Positions 12,561 to 17,367 of a DNA stretch of 51,912 nucleotides are shown piece by piece. Position numbers and translations under genes: made by a program. The stretch comes from a virus. Its lineage: Duplodnaviria; Caudoviricetes. The notes beneath the pieces were generated by a model that worked only from the letters and a program-made list of their open reading frames with translations, was not told the origin of the DNA and made no database searches. Positions within the stretch are counted from its first letter, which is position 1. Each line of letters opens with the position of its first letter. Where the stretch lies: positions 1-51,912 of the IMG/VR virus record IMGVR_UViG_3300030104_000504; one strand, 5' to 3'.

Positions 12561-12957
12561 CCTCTACTACCGTTTTAGCAGGAAGAATAAATAAAGAACC
12601 CCCATCAGTTTCTACGTTAACATCAATCCTATCTTGTTTACCTAGTCCTGTACGATCCAAGATTGTTTGTGCAGCTTGTAAACGCACATTAGCCTGGGGC
12701 ATAGGATCATCAGTATTCATAACATCAACAAGTTTCATAGCCGCTTGGGGTGCAGATTGAGCGAGGATTTGAGAGGCCAGTTCTATTATTTCATTTTTAA
12801 GTGATTTAATTACTTGGAAATAGCTGCCTTCGGCATACCCTGCAAGCTCCGCTGCTTCTTTTGGATCACCTCCTGTTTGGATTAGATAGCCTAAGAACTT
12901 TTGCTGCTTGTCTGTTAATTCTCTTTCTTGTTGTTTTTGAGGTAAATATCCATTCAT
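12535..12957 (-). CDS. Terminase small subunit-like protein (start reassigned from 12993 to ATG 12957)
   Basis: LTDKQQKFL...AAELAGY HTH pattern, AAQTILDRTG; upstream of terL; the track's TTG start is the -35 box of its promoter. Confidence 0.75.
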   Translation of the reverse strand: MNGYLPQKQQERELTDKQQKFLGYLIQTGGDPKEAAELAGYAEGSYFQVIKSLKNEIIELASQILAQSAPQAAMKLVDVMNTDDPMPQANVRLQAAQTILDRTGLGKQDRIDVNVETDGGSLFILPAKTVVEGEYEVAEN

Positions 12958-12964
12958 GCTGTAC

Positions 12965-12993
12965 ATTATAGTAGTGTATTTAGAGTTTGTCAA
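12965..12993 (-). promoter_or_regulatory. Perfect consensus sigma70 promoter driving packaging/structural arm
   Basis: TTGACA (12993-12988), 17 bp spacer, TATAAT (12970-12965). Confidence 0.9.
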
Positions 12994-13011
12994 GTCTTTT
13001 TTAAATAAAAC

Positions 13012-13040
13012 TTGACAAACTTACGATTCAACTGTATACT
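13012..13040 (+). promoter_or_regulatory. Sigma70 promoter facing the early arm
   Basis: TTGACA 13012-13017, 17 bp spacer, TATACT 13035-13040. Confidence 0.85.
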
Positions 13041-13567
13041 GGAGTAACTCCCTATGGGGGTTGTGCATATATATACCTCGTATATAATACTTTTAAAAGC
13101 TTTAAAAGGTGAGCGCAACTTTCCTAAGTATTGACAACTTGAAAAGCCCTTAAAATTTTTAAGATTGCATTACACCCCCACCACCCTGCCACGGCCACCT
13201 GCCCAGCCCCTCTCAAACTTATAGAGTATAACTTTTGAAAAGCTTCTGAAGCCTTGCAAGATTGATGCCAAGTTTAACAGCCCTGAAAATATTTTTAAAA
13301 GTTTTCAAATGTGGCCTAAATATTGCATAGCTCTGTAAATATATTCCATAGAGTGTACAATTTTTAAAAGGTATTCCGAAGTTTCATAAATACAGCAATA
13401 CTTTTAAAAACTTCTAAATACTTTCAAAAACTTATGAATTATTCACCATACTATCACGCTCCATTTTATCTCCATTATTCCTTATAGATTTCTAAAGAAA
13501 TTTAGCCGAGAATCTTAACCGAGTCGAGGCACGTAGCCGAGACATTAACAAATAGGGAATATTTAAA
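13041..13567. other. Long non-coding region; candidate genome terminus/origin
   Basis: No ORF >=60 aa, many TTTTAAAA/TTTTGAAA tracts, one C-rich island, lies at the strand divergence next to terS. Confidence 0.55.
13215..13236 (+). repeat. Dyad motif copy 1 (centre GAG)
   Basis: AAACTTATAGAGTATAACTTTT. Confidence 0.9.
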
Positions 13568-14161
13568 ATGGATCTACAAATAAACAAGGACAACACAGTC
13601 AAACTTCCAACTGCTATCAACAATTCAGAAGTAGCAATCGACGTGAAAGAAGTGAGAGAAGTAGTTAAAAAGCTTCTATCAGCAGAATTAGTAATCGAGA
13701 ATTTAACGCCTCGAATATTTAAAACATTTAGAGAAGTTATACATTCTCACAATGTAGAAGAATTTTTAAAGCTTCAAAAAGCTTTTTGCAATGCGTCAGG
13801 CTTTAAGAATGTATCTCAATTAGCTGAAGCTTCAGGCACAAAAACTATTCAAACCATGATTTCTACTTTGAAAAGATACACCAAAGAATTCACTGGCAAG
13901 CCTGAAAGCTTTGGAGAGATTCAAAAAGAATTGAAGGCAGTAGCGCAAGCTAAGAATTCAACACCCGCCAATGGCAAAGATGGGAAGACACCCGATTCTA
14001 CTGTTGAATCTGGAACAGAGTCAGAAGTACCTAGTGCGATTCCATCAAGTATTGTTGACCCGCATATAATCGAGTTTATCAACAAGGCACCTCGGCTATC
14101 TGTAGAACAACAGAAAGAAATTGGAAAGGTATTGGCTCAAATCAACTCACAAATCAAGTAA
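13568..14161 (+). CDS. First early gene, hypothetical (197 aa)
   Basis: ORF with AGGGA RBS; helical N-domain, flexible linker, short helical C-domain; no family recognised. Confidence 0.75.
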   Translation: MDLQINKDNTVKLPTAINNSEVAIDVKEVREVVKKLLSAELVIENLTPRIFKTFREVIHSHNVEEFLKLQKAFCNASGFKNVSQLAEASGTKTIQTMISTLKRYTKEFTGKPESFGEIQKELKAVAQAKNSTPANGKDGKTPDSTVESGTESEVPSAIPSSIVDPHIIEFINKAPRLSVEQQKEIGKVLAQINSQIK

Positions 14162-14174
14162 GGGTATTCCCTAT

Positions 14175-14201
14175 AGACCTAGGCAAGTCTCTAAACTGCC
14201 T
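14175..14201 (+). other. Compact H-type RNA pseudoknot candidate
   Basis: AGAC-CT-AGGCA-A-GTCT-CTAAAC-TGCCT: stem1 AGAC/GTCT, stem2 AGGCA/TGCCT. Confidence 0.55.
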
Positions 14202-14262
14202 CGCTTGCTGTGGATTTCTACACGTAGTAGAATAGAAGCTATACAATATGGATTTTAGAAAA

Positions 14263-14284
14263 AAACTTATACTGTATAACTTTT
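14263..14284 (+). repeat. Dyad motif copy 2 (centre CTG)
   Basis: AAACTTATACTGTATAACTTTT, 14 nt before ATG 14299. Confidence 0.95.
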
Positions 14285-14298
14285 GAAAAGGTTTAAAG

Positions 14299-14538
14299 AT
14301 GAAACAATACGCTCATATTTCAACATGGGATTTGCAAGGAAGCTTGTACTTGCTACCTATTTGCGGATCTAAAAAGGGTCATAGATTAGAGGGTCAAAAA
14401 GATATAAACTCTCAAGATATTATCCATAGATCGGACATAGACGATGAGTGGTTAAAAACTAATGTTGCTTGCAAGCAATGTTTAAACTTATACTTAAAAC
14501 CAACGAAAGAAGAATCAACACAGTTAAGCTTGTTCTAA
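14299..14538 (+). CDS. 79 aa Cys/His protein ending in beta-clamp motif QLSLF
   Basis: H...PICG...CKQC possible Zn site; C-terminus STQLSLF. Confidence 0.7.
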   Translation: MKQYAHISTWDLQGSLYLLPICGSKKGHRLEGQKDINSQDIIHRSDIDDEWLKTNVACKQCLNLYLKPTKEESTQLSLF

Positions 14539-14559
14539 AACTTATACTGTATAACTTTT
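14538..14559 (+). repeat. Dyad motif copy 3 (centre CTG); part of 43-bp exact repeat 14537..14579
   Basis: Overlaps TAA of upstream ORF; 14537..14579 is identical to 14812..14854. Confidence 0.95.
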
Positions 14560-14572
14560 GAAAGGATTTAGA

Positions 14573-14812
14573 ATGGATACTGAAGACTCAAGACCGACTC
14601 TAGAACTACCAGAATTTTTAAGCCAACAGGCAGACATTGCGTCAGCATCGGTTTACAATTACTATGTAGAAAACAAGCTAGATTTAAATGGCTTGTTTGA
14701 AGTTGCGGAGAATGGAGACGCTCGTTATAGTGAGCATGGTCAGGACTTATTCAATGGTTTCTATGACGATGCCGAAGAATTTCTTCTTGGACTGTACAAA
14801 AAGGGAAGTTAA
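14573..14812 (+). CDS. 79 aa acidic hypothetical protein (start reassigned to ATG 14573)
   Basis: AAGGA RBS then ATG; 17 D/E versus 5 K/R by hand count. Confidence 0.75.
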   Translation: MDTEDSRPTLELPEFLSQQADIASASVYNYYVENKLDLNGLFEVAENGDARYSEHGQDLFNGFYDDAEEFLLGLYKKGS

Positions 14813-14834
14813 AAACTTATACTGTATAACTTTT
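14813..14834 (+). repeat. Dyad motif copy 4 (centre CTG); part of 43-bp exact repeat 14812..14854
   Basis: Immediately follows TAA 14810-14812. Confidence 0.95.
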
Positions 14835-14847
14835 GAAAGGATTTAGA

Positions 14848-15084
14848 ATGGATAGAGAATGTCAAAAAAGAAAAAGTGTTAGTAGTTCTTGCTATGTTAT
14901 TTCTCCTGAAGTGCAAGAGCTTGCAAACAAAATGAAAAGGTTTGTAAAGGAACAAGAAAAAAGAAGAAACGACAAAGAAATTTTGGAAGCTCTTCTATCT
15001 TGTGAAGATCCAATTAAAGCAGTAGTAATGATGCAAGCTGAAAGAAAAAGGCAAGCTGAACTAATTAAGGATAACGATGAATAA
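14848..15084 (+). CDS. 78 aa helical hypothetical protein (start reassigned to ATG 14848)
   Basis: Same RBS/ATG context as 14573. Confidence 0.7.
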   Translation: MDRECQKRKSVSSSCYVISPEVQELANKMKRFVKEQEKRRNDKEILEALLSCEDPIKAVVMMQAERKRQAELIKDNDE

Positions 15085-15220
15085 AGAATCAAAAGCGATT
15101 GGCAGAAAAGCCGCAGGGTCTTATGGTAGACCACGAAACGCAAACAAGCGTCGAGGCTATAACGCTAAACGTGCGGGTAATAAAGCAATTAGAAAGGCAG
15201 GTAAAAACTATGAGGTTTAA
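15077..15220 (+). CDS. 47 aa Arg/Lys-rich peptide (not in ORF track)
   Basis: AAGGA RBS; MNKESKAIGRKAAGSYGRPRNANKRRGYNAKRAGNKAIRKAGKNYEV; coupled to both neighbours. Confidence 0.6.
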   Translation: MNKESKAIGRKAAGSYGRPRNANKRRGYNAKRAGNKAIRKAGKNYEV

Positions 15221-15368
15221 CTATTTGGTTGAGGTAGAATATAGAGATGGTTCAGTTCGGGCCAAGCTCTTTAACTACAAAGAGGCTGACAAGGCAAACA
15301 GGTATCACAGTAGAATGGAGAATACCTGGGGCAAATCTATCAAAAAAGTGACCACAAAAAGGATTTAA
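15210..15368 (+). CDS. 52 aa hypothetical protein (3' part of track ORF 15099..15368)
   Basis: ATG 15210 overlapping previous ORF end; MRFNYLVEVEYRDGS... Confidence 0.55.
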   Translation: MRFNYLVEVEYRDGSVRAKLFNYKEADKANRYHSRMENTWGKSIKKVTTKRI

Positions 15369-15369
15369 A

Positions 15370-16125
15370 ATGAGAGAATTTAGTGGGGGTAAACTCCTTA
15401 AAATAAAGGTAAAGCCAAAACCTAAAGGCTTTATCTTGTACGATGGGCCAAGTATTCTTGATGGTAAACCGATAGCTGTTATTGCTACGCTGTCTACCAG
15501 CAATAGAAAAACTGGCCCCATGATTCAGACATGGATTATTAGATCAGATATAGATCCAGTGTCAGCATCAAAAGAGGGAGAAGATTCTAGTATCTGTGGG
15601 AGTTGTCCTCATAAGCATAACTTAGGTGGTGCTTGCTATGTAAATATTGGTCAGGCACCATTAGCAATATTCAAAGCTTATAAACGTGGGCTGTACCCGC
15701 ATATAGATTACGAGGCAGACCATATTCATTTTGTTGGGCGTATGGTTAGGCTTGGTGCTTATGGTGATCCATCTGCTATGCCTTATGAAGTAGCAGAAAA
15801 AGTTGTTAGCATGGGTCGTGGTCATACTGGCTACACTCATCAGATAAGGCATAAGAAATTTGACAAGAGGTTCTTAAACTTGTGCATGGTTTCAGCAGAT
15901 ACACCAAAGCAAGCCTTAAAGTATCAAGCTATGGGAGCTAAAACATTTAGAGTTGCGCTAGAAAACGACTCGATGTACGATAGTGAAATTGAATGTTTGA
16001 GTGAGTCCGAGGGGTTACAGTGTGATGCTTGTGGATTATGTAATGGTCAACAGCAAAGCATTGCAATCAAAGTACATGGATCTAGAGCGAGTAAGTTCAA
16101 GTCCAAGTTGATCGCAGTAGGATAA
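15370..16125 (+). CDS. Cys-rich phage protein, possibly Fe-S / radical-SAM-like (GP88-like)
   Basis: SNRKTGPM, CGSC...CY, VRLGAYGDP, TGYTH, C-terminal C..CDACGLC and VHG. Confidence 0.55.
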   Translation: MREFSGGKLLKIKVKPKPKGFILYDGPSILDGKPIAVIATLSTSNRKTGPMIQTWIIRSDIDPVSASKEGEDSSICGSCPHKHNLGGACYVNIGQAPLAIFKAYKRGLYPHIDYEADHIHFVGRMVRLGAYGDPSAMPYEVAEKVVSMGRGHTGYTHQIRHKKFDKRFLNLCMVSADTPKQALKYQAMGAKTFRVALENDSMYDSEIECLSESEGLQCDACGLCNGQQQSIAIKVHGSRASKFKSKLIAVG

Positions 16126-16145
16126 ACTTATACAATATAACTTTT
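16124..16145 (+). repeat. Dyad motif copy 5 (centre CAA)
   Basis: AAACTTATACAATATAACTTTT overlapping TAA of 15370..16125. Confidence 0.95.
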
Positions 16146-16334
16146 AACATAACAAAGGAGGTCTTATGACATGGTGAGTCAAAGCTCACACACTTATATT
16201 CGGTACAATTTGAATGAATGTAAGCCAATTAAGTTTGGAAAAGTGATCGATAAAAAGGGCAGATAAAGAAGTCCCTTGTGTGTTTACTTAGCCTACGGTT
16301 CTAAAGGTAGGCTAGACTAAGTACATAAGATTAA

Positions 16335-16356
16335 AAACTTATACAATATAACTTTT
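16335..16356 (+). repeat. Dyad motif copy 6 (centre CAA)
   Basis: AAACTTATACAATATAACTTTT followed by AAAGGAG RBS of 16370. Confidence 0.95.
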
Positions 16357-16369
16357 AAAGGAGAAGTAA

Positions 16370-16579
16370 ATGTTCGATATAATAGTGATGAAGGCATCAA
16401 AGTTTTATGAGGAGTCTAGCTCTGGCTATGTTGCCATCACACCTAATTGGGTCTTTGAGATTGCGTTTGATCAGATACCTAGGTTACAATTTGGTATCAG
16501 CAGGGATGAGGGGTTTGAAAATTCCTACTGTATATGTTTAGGCAGCATCTGTTTTGGTGCGACAAAAAAGGAGATATAG
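16370..16579 (+). CDS. Hypothetical protein (69 aa)
   Basis: Strong AAGGAG RBS. Confidence 0.7.
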   Translation: MFDIIVMKASKFYEESSSGYVAITPNWVFEIAFDQIPRLQFGISRDEGFENSYCICLGSICFGATKKEI

Positions 16580-16580
16580 A

Positions 16581-17204
16581 ATGAGAGTTCTAGTAGCGTG
16601 TGAATCAAGTGGTACGGTAAGAGAAGCGTTCAGGAAGTTAGGCTATGATGCATGGTCAAATGATATGTTACCTGCTGATGACTCTTCTGAGTACCATATA
16701 CAAGGGGATTGTGTTGAGGCTATCAAGAGTAGGGAGTGGGATCTAATAATAATGCACCCTCCATGTACAGCGTTAGCAGTATCAGGTAACGCATGGTATG
16801 GTAAAGATATGCCAAAGCATCAAGAGCGTTTAGCAGCTATCGAGTGGACGATGAATCTTTGGAAGCTTGCTACTAGTGTTTGTGATCATGTATGTATGGA
16901 GAATCCAGTAGGAGTGCTGCCAATTAAACCAACACAGTACATACAGCCATATCAGTTTGGTCATCCTGAATCTAAGAAAACCGGGCTGTGGCTTCATGGG
17001 TTAAATAGTCTTGAAGATACTGACAATGTTAAGGAGATACACGACTCTCTACCACGTAAAGAGAGAATGAGAATACATTATCTCTCACCCTCTAAGGACA
17101 GGTGGAAGATAAGAAGTAAAACTTTTCAGGGGATAGCAGATGCAATGGCAGCGCAATGGCCTCTACAGTTTTCGTTAATGTTCAAGCAAAAGAAAGAGGC
17201 GTAA
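16581..17204 (+). CDS. DNA (cytosine-5) methyltransferase-like protein
   Basis: MRVLVACESSG (SAM-binding motif I variant), catalytic HPPC, ENP motif VI; AGGAG RBS before 16581. Confidence 0.8.
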   Translation: MRVLVACESSGTVREAFRKLGYDAWSNDMLPADDSSEYHIQGDCVEAIKSREWDLIIMHPPCTALAVSGNAWYGKDMPKHQERLAAIEWTMNLWKLATSVCDHVCMENPVGVLPIKPTQYIQPYQFGHPESKKTGLWLHGLNSLEDTDNVKEIHDSLPRKERMRIHYLSPSKDRWKIRSKTFQGIADAMAAQWPLQFSLMFKQKKEA

Positions 17205-17208
17205 AGTA

Positions 17209-17367
17209 ATGAAAGAATTTAAAGTCACTGTGACCAGCGGCTACAAGAAGATCTATTACGTTCAAGCAGAGGATTGGGAACAGGCCGAAGAGATTGTTTC
17301 AACAACCGAAGATGATCCCGATTTTGAAGAGTTCGAGAGTGATGAGATTGCAACAGAGGAGGTGTAG
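17209..17367 (+). CDS. 52 aa very acidic protein (not in ORF track)
   Basis: GAGG RBS; MKEFKVTVTSGYKKIYYVQAEDWEQAEEIV...EEV; 17 D/E versus 4 K. Confidence 0.7.
   Translation: MKEFKVTVTSGYKKIYYVQAEDWEQAEEIVSTTEDDPDFEEFESDEIATEEV

What the first reader, a model, noticed from the sequence alone, without database searches (positions are those of the whole stretch)
14263..15084. Exact 275-bp periodicity with three unrelated ORFs of 79, 79 and 78 aa
Seen: motif copies 2, 3 and 4 are spaced 275 and 275 bp. The ORFs after them are 240, 240 and 237 nt yet show no visible similarity (Cys/His with QLSLF; acidic; helical charged). Units 2 and 3 share an exact 43-bp block covering motif, RBS, ATG and first codon. 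Inference: fixed-length units with a supplied expression signal suggest length-constrained gene capture (a repeat-spacer array with gene-sized spacers) or an old triplication. With only two intervals, coincidence cannot be excluded.
Basis: partly seen in the sequence, partly recalled or inferred. Interest (0 to 1): 0.75.

Follow-up and report, generated by a model that had tools for sequence, protein, structure and literature searches.

The report
Promoter-like repeats flanking swappable phage genes
Three unrelated small early genes of an uncultured marine phage each sit behind a copy of the same 22-base signal; their equal 275-base spacing looks like coincidence, but the repeated signal marks places where such genes are swapped in and out in nature.

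Summary
Motif copies start at 14263, 14538 and 14813 (275 and 275 bp apart) and are followed by ORFs of 79, 79 and 78 aa with no detectable similarity. Units 2 and 3 share an exact 43-bp block.

The equal spacing is not a conserved property. It arises as 36+240-1 versus 35+240+0. The same genome has a 211-bp unit bounded by the same motif. Relatives carrying the motif show spacings of 216, 249, 263, 434 and 450 bp. An apparent third 275 in the closest relative is an artefact of a 10-N scaffold gap. The third ORF's family ranges from 61 to 110 aa.

The window is a whole 51.9-kb marine podovirus-like genome. Its six motif copies all lie on the + strand within 3.1 kb at the start of the early operon, five of them 13-21 nt before a start codon. 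Against close relatives and contigs from other samples, whole ORFs are present, absent or replaced exactly at motif/leader boundaries.

This works like the PeSL regulatory cassettes of T4-type phages. However, the motif is neither a sigma-70 consensus nor a terminator. No integrase, resolvase or phage RNA polymerase was detected. What the motif does biochemically remains inferred.

The parts
13012..13040 (+). sigma-70-type consensus promoter (TTGACA-17-TATACT, 11 of 12) at the head of the rightward early operon. A 12 of 12 partner faces left at 12993-12965.
   Evidence: Both lie in the inverted repeat I7.
13215..13236 (+). motif copy 1 (2 mismatches). No start codon follows directly; it lies about 330 nt upstream of the 197-aa gene.
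13568..14161 (+). first early gene, 197 aa (p197), of unknown family. It is present in all motif-bearing records and absent from the motif-less relatives.
14263..14284 (+). motif copy 2, followed by leader type alpha (GAAAAGGTTTAAAG) and the ATG at 14299
14299..14538 (+). ORF A, 79 aa, with Cys/His. An ORFan known only from relatives at 95% identity or more. Its stop overlaps the next motif by 1 nt.
14538..14559 (+). motif copy 3, followed by leader type beta (GAAAGGATTTAGA) and the ATG at 14573
14573..14812 (+). ORF B, 79 aa, acidic (pI 4.05). An ORFan.
14813..14834 (+). motif copy 4, followed by leader type beta and the ATG at 14848
14848..15084 (+). ORF C, 78 aa. Its family is mosaic and variable in length. 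Its last codons overlap the start of the 47-aa gene (ATGAATAA). It is absent or truncated in contigs of other samples.
14537..14579 (+). 43-bp block identical to 14812-14854 (motif, leader, ATG GAT A)
15077..15220 (+). conserved 47-aa gene (p47). In G001, L202 and one contig of run X19 it sits directly behind a motif with the alpha leader.
16124..16334 (+). 211-bp unit (motif copy 5 plus a 31-aa ORF) bounded by motif copies 5 and 6. It is absent from G001, L202 and a contig of run X4.
16335..16356 (+). motif copy 6, before the 69-aa ORF (16370-16579)

Best explanation
The three units are independent small early-gene cassettes of a lytic marine podovirus-like phage. Each consists of a 22-bp near-palindromic, phage-lineage-specific regulatory motif, a 13-14-nt Shine-Dalgarno leader and an unrelated ORFan.

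Genes are packed stop-to-motif. Spacing is therefore leader plus ORF length, and the two 275-bp intervals reflect two unrelated ORFs that both happen to be 79 aa. That is coincidence, not constraint.

The reiterated motif-leader blocks (22-43 bp identical) act as portable homology. Recombination between copies, within a genome or between co-infecting relatives, deletes, inserts or replaces whole ORFs while leaving each newcomer with a ready expression signal.

Shown: the motif positions, the unrelatedness of the ORFs, the variable spacing in relatives, and presence/absence/replacement joints at motif boundaries.

Inferred: that the motif is a transcription-level protein-binding site, and that homologous recombination is the exchange mechanism. 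I prefer a promoter or operator for a phage-encoded dimeric factor, at about 0.6. Other possibilities are an RNA-level signal at about 0.15 and a promoter for an undetected phage RNA polymerase at about 0.1.
For: Spacing
- Spacing is arithmetic: 36+240-1 and 35+240+0.
- In relatives too, the upstream stop abuts the motif and the ATG follows it by 10-14 nt.
- Spacing varies. The window gives 1048, 275, 275, 1311, 211. G007 and G006 give 216, 263, 249, 725, 998. G008 gives 216, 434, 450. G009 gives 217, 434, 450, 781, 1327. The ORFs in those units are 60, 77, 70, 132 and 69+70 aa.

Unrelatedness of the ORFs
- BLASTP finds nothing at E<=100 in 3 of 3 pairs.
- Local nucleotide and protein scores lie within shuffles.
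- hhalign probabilities are 0.0-0.2%.

Cassette exchange
- G001 carries a different membrane ORF between two motif copies, then a motif directly before p47. G001 and L202 lack the 211-bp unit, with breakpoints inside the motif.
- Contigs from other samples show ORF C absent (joint 14834->15072 with 9 other letters, X4, side 234).
- They show ORF C truncated (14954->15069, X6, side 143).
- They show the 211-bp unit absent (16112->16335, X4, side 255).
- They show another ORF start behind the motif-2 leader (loose end of 180 letters at 14297, X4).
- ORF C family members are 61-110 aa, with alternative N- and C-termini.

Motif
- 6 of 6 copies lie on the + strand within 3.1 kb of 51.9 kb. G007 likewise has 6 forward and 0 reverse within 2.5 kb of 46 kb.
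- Two lineage variants differ symmetrically in both half-sites: TTATA..TATAA versus TTACA..TGTAA.
- A consensus sigma-70 promoter lies upstream at 13012-13040.

Precedent
- PeSL-mediated shuffling in T4-type phages (PMC2839356, sections 13 and 16 read).
Against: - Exact equality of two adjacent intervals has an a-priori chance of only about 1.5% if sizes are uniform over 211-275.
- All cluster members examined are 79 aa, 15 of 15 for A and 14 of 14 for B. They are 92% identical or more, so they are not independent.
- The alternative unit in G001 is of similar size (about 270). Short units cluster at 211-275 bp, so a loose preference for ORFs of about 60-80 aa cannot be excluded.
- Only two motif lineages and about eight records were available.
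- Two of the joints (X19) have short sides of 22-28 letters, at 88% likeness, and are weak.
- No transcript 5' ends, protein binding or recombination were observed. The motif's role is inferred.
Confidence: 0.7

Rival explanations
2. Old tandem triplication of one 275-bp unit whose coding parts have diverged beyond recognition, while the motif and leader stayed under selection.
For: The unit lengths are equal. The 43-bp block shared by units 2 and 3 reaches into the first two codons. The ORF sizes are similar.
Against: No residual similarity was found at the nucleotide, protein or profile level, although the profiles had Neff of about 1 and little power. Identity stops abruptly after ATGGATA rather than decaying. 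Unit 1 carries a different leader, the one attached to p47 in G001. Units are exchanged singly in other samples. Compositions differ strongly: pI 6.8, 4.05 and 7.7.
Confidence: 0.08
3. Site-specific gene capture, integron-like: the palindromic motif is a recombination site cut and joined by a dedicated phage enzyme.
For: An imperfect palindrome lies at every cassette boundary. Joints fall at the motif or leader edge. Both half-sites co-vary between lineages. A lineage-specific protein (p197) co-occurs with the motif.
Against: No tyrosine or serine recombinase is present in a 99%-complete genome, and the controls gave hits in 14 of 14 and 13 of 14 genomes. Right-hand junctions are not at motif copies but inside the next gene's leader or first codons, as expected for homology-guided or illegitimate exchange. 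p197 has no recognisable fold.
Confidence: 0.08
4. The motif is an N4-type hairpin promoter or a T7-type promoter read by a phage RNA polymerase. The array is then just a row of such promoters.
For: The geometry resembles N4 early promoters: a 5-bp stem and 3-nt loop, then TTTT, then a purine in 6 of 6 window copies. N4 has a 3-base loop centred at -11 and four template A's as a ruler (PMC4496689, passages read). The compensatory stem change is seen.
Against: No PF00940 match was found, but that control gave no hit in any genome. The large virion ORFs have no Pfam or PDB-sequence match, and my crude motif regex, based on recalled motifs, found nothing. The hairpin is all A-T, at -0.6 to -3.0 kcal/mol with z of 0.6 to -1.2, whereas N4's is GC-rich. 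A consensus sigma-70 promoter heads the operon.
Confidence: 0.1

Closest known systems
PeSL (promoter-early stem-loop) regulatory cassettes of T4-type myoviruses (Arbiol et al. 2010, PMC2839356; Comeau et al. 2014, PMC4122927)
   Same: A reiterated intergenic motif runs from the upstream stop codon to the Shine-Dalgarno sequence and start of the next gene. It is placed mostly before ORFans in a plastic early region. Differences between close relatives are insertions, deletions and replacements bounded by the motif. The flanking ORF arrives with its expression signal (sections 13 and 16 read; abstract of the 2014 paper).
   Different: PeSLs are about 100 bp. They hold a sigma-70 consensus promoter and a stable, often G/C-rich terminator stem-loop. 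Here the conserved part is 22 bp, with no consistent -35/-10. The C-type variant replaces the base that would be the key -10 adenine. The hairpin is weak and no terminator was found on the + strand. The phage is a podovirus-like marine virus of about 52 kb, not a T4-like myovirus.
Stoperators of Cluster A mycobacteriophages (abstract of PMC9283540 seen in the search listing)
   Same: Many copies of one short site are distributed at gene boundaries, in one orientation relative to transcription, downstream of an early promoter.
   Different: Stoperators are asymmetric 13-bp sites (length recalled) bound by a monomeric immunity repressor of temperate phages. Here the site is a 22-bp near-palindrome. 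No repressor or integrase is recognisable, and the copies are confined to 3 kb.
Integron gene cassettes
   Same: An array of small, unrelated, individually mobile ORFs is separated by imperfect palindromes.
   Different: There is no integrase. The palindrome lies upstream of each ORF together with a ribosome-binding leader, not downstream as attC does. Right-hand junctions do not fall at a repeat.
N4 virion-RNA-polymerase hairpin promoters (PMC4496689)
   Same: A small inverted repeat with a 3-nt loop is followed by a 4-nt homopolymer spacer and a purine start position.
   Different: The stem is AT-only and thermodynamically negligible, and no giant virion polymerase was detected.

Membership tests
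PeSL regulatory cassette (T4-type) | Reiterated motif between the stop of one gene and the SD/ATG of the next, mostly before ORFans | tested here: met
   5 of 6 window copies end 13-21 nt before an ATG. Stops abut or overlap copies 3 and 4. A, B and C are ORFans.
PeSL regulatory cassette (T4-type) | Sigma-70 consensus -35 and -10 within the motif | tested here: not met
   The scan found 10 sigma-70-like sites against 12.1 +/- 3.2 in shuffles, and none recurs in register with the motif. The C-type variant has TGTAAC where TATAAC stands.
PeSL regulatory cassette (T4-type) | Stable stem-loop acting as a terminator | tested here: not met
   DNA folds give -0.6 to -3.0 kcal/mol, z 0.64 to -1.18. 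There are 0 terminator-like sites on the + strand in 12900-17300.
PeSL regulatory cassette (T4-type) | Indels and replacements between close relatives bounded by the motif | tested here: met
Integron | Tyrosine recombinase IntI next to the array | tested here: not met
   PF00589 gave 0 matches in the own genome, with control hits in 14 of 14 genomes. PF00239 gave 0.
Integron | attC palindrome at the 3' end of each promoterless cassette | tested here: not met
   The motif lies 5' of each ORF with its own SD leader. ORF C has no motif after it.
CRISPR-like repeat-spacer array | Short non-coding spacers of near-constant length between identical repeats | tested here: not met
   The 'spacers' are coding ORFs with an SD and ATG. 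Their lengths run from 211 to 1311 bp.
Stoperator system | One orientation relative to transcription, at gene boundaries | tested here: met
   6 of 6 copies lie on the + strand in the window, and G007 has 6 forward and 0 reverse.
Stoperator system | Cognate immunity repressor and a temperate lifestyle | tested here: inconclusive
   No repressor or integrase was recognised. p197 is unassigned.
N4-type hairpin promoter | Extrudable stable hairpin and a virion RNA polymerase | tested here: inconclusive
   The hairpin is weak. No polymerase was recognised by sequence. Structure-level search of the large ORFs was not done.

The most novel reading that the evidence does not exclude
The 22-bp palindrome is the binding site of a lineage-specific phage protein; the 197-aa product of the first early gene is the candidate. 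This protein both gates early transcription and targets cassette exchange. Lytic marine podoviruses would then carry an integrase-free, integron-like 'ORFan dock' that places new coding bodies directly behind a resident leader and start codon. Three different ORF bodies share the same ATGAA start behind one leader.
Probability: 0.08. Interest if true: 0.8.

Novelty: new variant of a known kind. Interest (0 to 1): 0.33.

Why it matters
The exact periodicity does not matter: it is best read as coincidence, and the report should stop it being treated as a new kind of array.

The substrate does matter. It is a compact, lineage-specific regulatory repeat that marks the edges of ORFan swaps in an abundant, uncultured group of marine phages. 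Parts of the stretch occur in runs from 13 studies.

It extends the PeSL principle, regulatory repeats as recombination handles, from T4-like myoviruses to a podovirus-like group with a different kind of motif. It also offers a small testable pair, motif and p197, for how such phages control early genes.

Tried and rejected
Searches for relatives and homologues
- GenBank phages, nucleotide search of 13000-17300: no match.
- tblastn of A, B and C against GenBank phages: no match.
Nearly all were 7-nt tandem repeats or chance hits; only L202 is a relative. This spent the single metagenome scan, so contigs carrying A, B or C in other samples could not be fetched.
- The viral-contig motif scan gave 72 stretches, of which only those from G001 and G005 are related.
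- The ESM Atlas gave a top score of 0.88 for A, with no family, and nothing for B.
- Rfam at E<=1 gave four implausible eukaryotic miRNA/snoRNA hits.

p197
With 14 sequences it reached 73.2.
- Foldseek found no match at E<=0.001. VIA-align's best was Z 5.3 to generic helical bundles. No function could be assigned.
- Pfam found nothing on 9 family members except one sub-threshold hit.

Large virion ORFs
- No Pfam match and no PDB sequence match.
- My regex for polymerase motifs, recalled from memory, found nothing.

Run data
- The RNA-library run X19 is held only as contigs, so it cannot show transcript starts.
- Uncovered bins are not evidence of absence.
- The X19 joints with sides of 22-28 letters are weak.

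Other points
- I first read the 275 in G001 as independent support, then rejected it on finding the 10-N run and the frame conflict.
- The 217 and 434 (2 x 217) spacings in L010 are treated as another numerical coincidence.
- Base composition of A, B and C (GC 0.33-0.40) does not set them apart from the genome (0.371).

Full report
WHAT IS THERE

The window is a complete or nearly complete virus record of 51,912 bp (CheckV 99%). PHROG matches identify:
- a leftward structural and packaging arm (terminase, portal, major head);
- a rightward early and replication arm from about 13.0 to 31 kb (T7-type primase-helicase, family A DNA polymerase, endonuclease VII, Cas4-like exonuclease, ribonucleotide reductase);
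- a second leftward arm with large unassigned virion ORFs.

The nearest cultured phages are Pelagibacter phages HTVC104P, 103P and 115P, at 46% identity over the primase-helicase. There is no nucleotide match in GenBank phages.

The 22-nt motif AAACTTATAC(NN)TATAACTTTT occurs six times. All copies are on the + strand, at 13215, 14263, 14538, 14813, 16124 and 16335. None was expected by chance.

THE OBSERVATION

It is correct in every number.
- The spacings are 275 and 275.
- The ORFs are 79, 79 and 78 aa, i.e. 240, 240 and 237 nt with the stop.
- Units 2 and 3 share exactly 43 bp (14537-14579 = 14812-14854), covering the motif, the leader, the ATG and four more bases.
- Unit 1 shares only 27-28 bp and has another leader.

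The three proteins are unrelated by every test I could run.
- BLASTP gave nothing at E<=100 for 3 of 3 pairs.
- Local nucleotide and protein scores lie inside codon- or residue-shuffled controls. The strongest case, A versus C at the nucleotide level, was reached by 28 of 300 shuffles.
- Profile-profile probabilities were 0.0-0.2%. Those profiles have Neff of about 1 because all known relatives are near-identical.
- None matches Pfam or PHROGs below E 0.01.
- A search of 5.8 billion clusters finds only relatives at 92% identity or more for A and B, and three clusters for C.

WHY THE SPACING IS EQUAL

Genes here are packed stop-to-motif, so spacing is leader plus ORF length.
- Unit 1 is 36 (motif start to ATG) + 240 - 1, because its stop overlaps the next motif by one base.
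- Unit 2 is 35 + 240 + 0.

Equality therefore needs two unrelated 79-aa ORFs and two offsetting one-base differences.

IS 275 CONSERVED?

No.
- The same genome holds a 211-bp unit bounded by motif copies 5 and 6.
- A second lineage carries a variant motif (AAACTTACACAATGTAACTTTT). Its spacings are 216, 263, 249, 725 and 998 in G007 and G006; 216, 434 and 450 in G008; and 217, 434, 450, 781 and 1327 in G009/L010.
- The ORFs in those units are 60, 77, 70 and 231 aa in G007, and 60, 132, 69+70 and 249 aa in L010.

The closest relative, G001 (94-99% nucleotide identity in the flanks), at first seems to give a third 275, with motifs at 17071 and 17346. That unit contains a run of 10 N.
- The two halves of its ORF are out of frame across exactly 10 bases.
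- An intact ORF requires a gap of 2, 5, 8 or 11 bases, i.e. a spacing of 267, 270, 273 or 276.
- Its homologue in L002 is 75 aa, which points to 270.

The third slot is not length-stable either. Members of the ORF C family are 61, 65, 67, 71, 72, 74, 78, 99, 104 and 110 aa. Some of the longest are gene-caller fusions across the motif. The family has alternative N-termini, a 13-aa indel and an alternative C-terminus.

CASSETTE BEHAVIOUR

In G001, the slot between the 197-aa gene and the conserved 47-aa gene holds motif, a different (membrane) ORF, and motif. The second motif carries exactly the window's unit-1 leader, now joined to the 47-aa gene. Identity to the window's unit 1 runs through ...AAAGATGAA and stops there. 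G001 and the metagenome contig L202 both lack the 211-bp unit, and the breakpoints lie inside the motif.

I laid contigs of three DNA runs and one RNA-library run from other marine samples on 13000-17000. They show the following:
- ORF B, then a motif, then the 47-aa gene, with ORF C missing. The joint is 14834->15072, with 9 other letters between, in X4 (side 234).
- A truncated ORF C, joint 14954->15069, in X6 (side 143).
- The 211-bp unit missing, joint 16112->16335, in X4 (side 255).
- A contig in which the motif-2 leader is followed by a different ORF start, as a loose end of 180 letters at 14297 in X4.
- Two further joints in X19 (14297->15076 and 16356->16567) fit the same pattern. Their sides are only 22-28 letters, and I used 88% likeness, so I count them as weak.

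Left boundaries thus sit at the 3' edge of the motif-leader block, sometimes a few bases into the ORF. Right boundaries sit in the next gene's leader or first codons.

No tyrosine or serine recombinase is encoded (with working controls).

The simplest mechanism is homologous exchange between the 22-43-bp identical blocks, within a genome or between co-infecting relatives, supplemented by illegitimate joins. This is what was proposed, and partly shown, for PeSLs in T4-type phages (PMC2839356, sections 13 and 16).

WHAT THE MOTIF IS

This part is inferred, not shown. The facts are:
- It is a near-perfect 21-bp palindrome with one conserved asymmetric position.
- It is strictly one-stranded in orientation.
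- It is confined to the first 3 kb of the early operon, in both the window and the complete genome G007.
- Five of six window copies end 13-21 nt before an ATG, with a Shine-Dalgarno sequence between. The first copy has no adjacent ORF and lies about 175 nt downstream of a consensus sigma-70 promoter (13012-13040, 11 of 12).
- The two lineages differ by the same change in both half-sites: TTATA/TATAA versus TTACA/TGTAA.
- The potential hairpin is all A-T and no more stable than shuffles.
- Read as a -10 hexamer, the C-type variant would lose the key adenine (my knowledge of sigma-70 promoters). The scan finds no sigma-70 site in register with the motif.

Together these favour a double-stranded site for a dimeric, phage-encoded protein, either an activator-dependent promoter or an operator or roadblock. 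They argue against a host-consensus promoter or an RNA structure.

One lead is the 197-aa product of the first early gene. It has homologues in 8 of 8 motif-bearing records and in 0 of the 8 motif-less loci L002-L009, which share the downstream 251-aa gene. These represent only two or three lineages. The family is small, with 14 representatives at E<=0.001 among 1.84 billion. A model at pLDDT 73 has no informative fold match.

An N4-like hairpin promoter shares the geometry (PMC4496689). It lacks a stable hairpin here, and no polymerase is recognisable.

COMPARISON AND NOVELTY

Functionally this is a PeSL-like system. It fails two defining PeSL features, the sigma-70 consensus and the terminator stem-loop, and it sits in a different phage group. 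I therefore file it as a new variant of a known kind, not as a member.

Searches of the paper library found no description of such a motif in this phage group:
- 'HMO-2011' + promoter + intergenic returned 0 papers.
- podovirus / early genes / conserved promoter / ORFan / recombination returned 5 papers, none relevant by title or abstract.
- HTVC103P + pelagiphage returned 5 papers, listing only.

The library lacks most subscription journals.

VERDICT

The periodicity is real in the sequence but most likely coincidental. The fixed-length and triplication readings are not supported. The underlying array of motif-delimited, naturally swapping ORFan cassettes is genuine and moderately interesting.

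Noticed in passing
window 12965-13040: Two back-to-back consensus sigma-70-type promoters lie inside a 19-nt inverted repeat between the packaging arm and the early arm. One faces left (12 of 12) and one faces right (11 of 12). This suggests a host with canonical sigma-70 promoters and a shared control region.
   Followed up: partly
window 13085-13434: An AT-rich family of short repeats (ACTTTTAAAAGC-like, families D3-D5 and D7) fills the 5' leader between motif copy 1 and the first early gene. It could be an origin or further protein-binding sites.
   Followed up: no
L018 (G001) 1654-1663; G001:C1:17224-17233: A run of 10 N inside a small membrane ORF makes the inter-motif distance read exactly 275. 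The reading frame shows that the true gap is not 10.
   Followed up: yes
window 13568-14161 and homologues in L010, L011, L221, L222: The 197-aa first early protein has a confident N-terminal helical domain, a low-complexity Gly/Ser/Glu linker and a C-terminal helical hairpin. It co-occurs with the motif and belongs to a very small family with no known fold match.
   Followed up: partly
L002 3975-6001 and L003: These relatives have 85-98% identical 47-, 52- and 251-aa genes. They lack both the motif and p197 and carry other small ORFs (70, 75, 77, 72 aa) packed without repeats. The motif system is therefore dispensable for expressing the shared genes.
   Followed up: partly
L010 2676-3327: The inter-motif distances of 217 and 434 are an exact 1:2 ratio. 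The ORFs involved are unrelated, so this is another numerical coincidence of the same kind as 275/275.
   Followed up: yes
window 14848-15084 and proteins P0003-P0005, P0034-P0051: The ORF C family is itself mosaic. It has two alternative N-termini, a 13-aa indel removing both N-terminal cysteines, and an alternative C-terminal half. Some database entries are gene-caller fusions that translate the motif itself (...KNLYCITF...).
   Followed up: partly
window 15370-16125: The Cys-rich 251-aa protein (phrog_2554, E 3.7e-72) has relatives at about 51-54% identity in large Klebsiella, Yersinia and Proteus myoviruses. It also has matches in Mycobacterium and Gordonia phages. It is a widely travelled early gene of unknown function.
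   Followed up: no
L004 3187-3296 and 3920-4007; L009 1693-1769; L007 805-872: More distant relatives carry 11-bp tandem iterons (for example ACGGCTATTCC repeated) upstream of the 251-aa gene homologue. These resemble replication-origin iterons.
   Followed up: no
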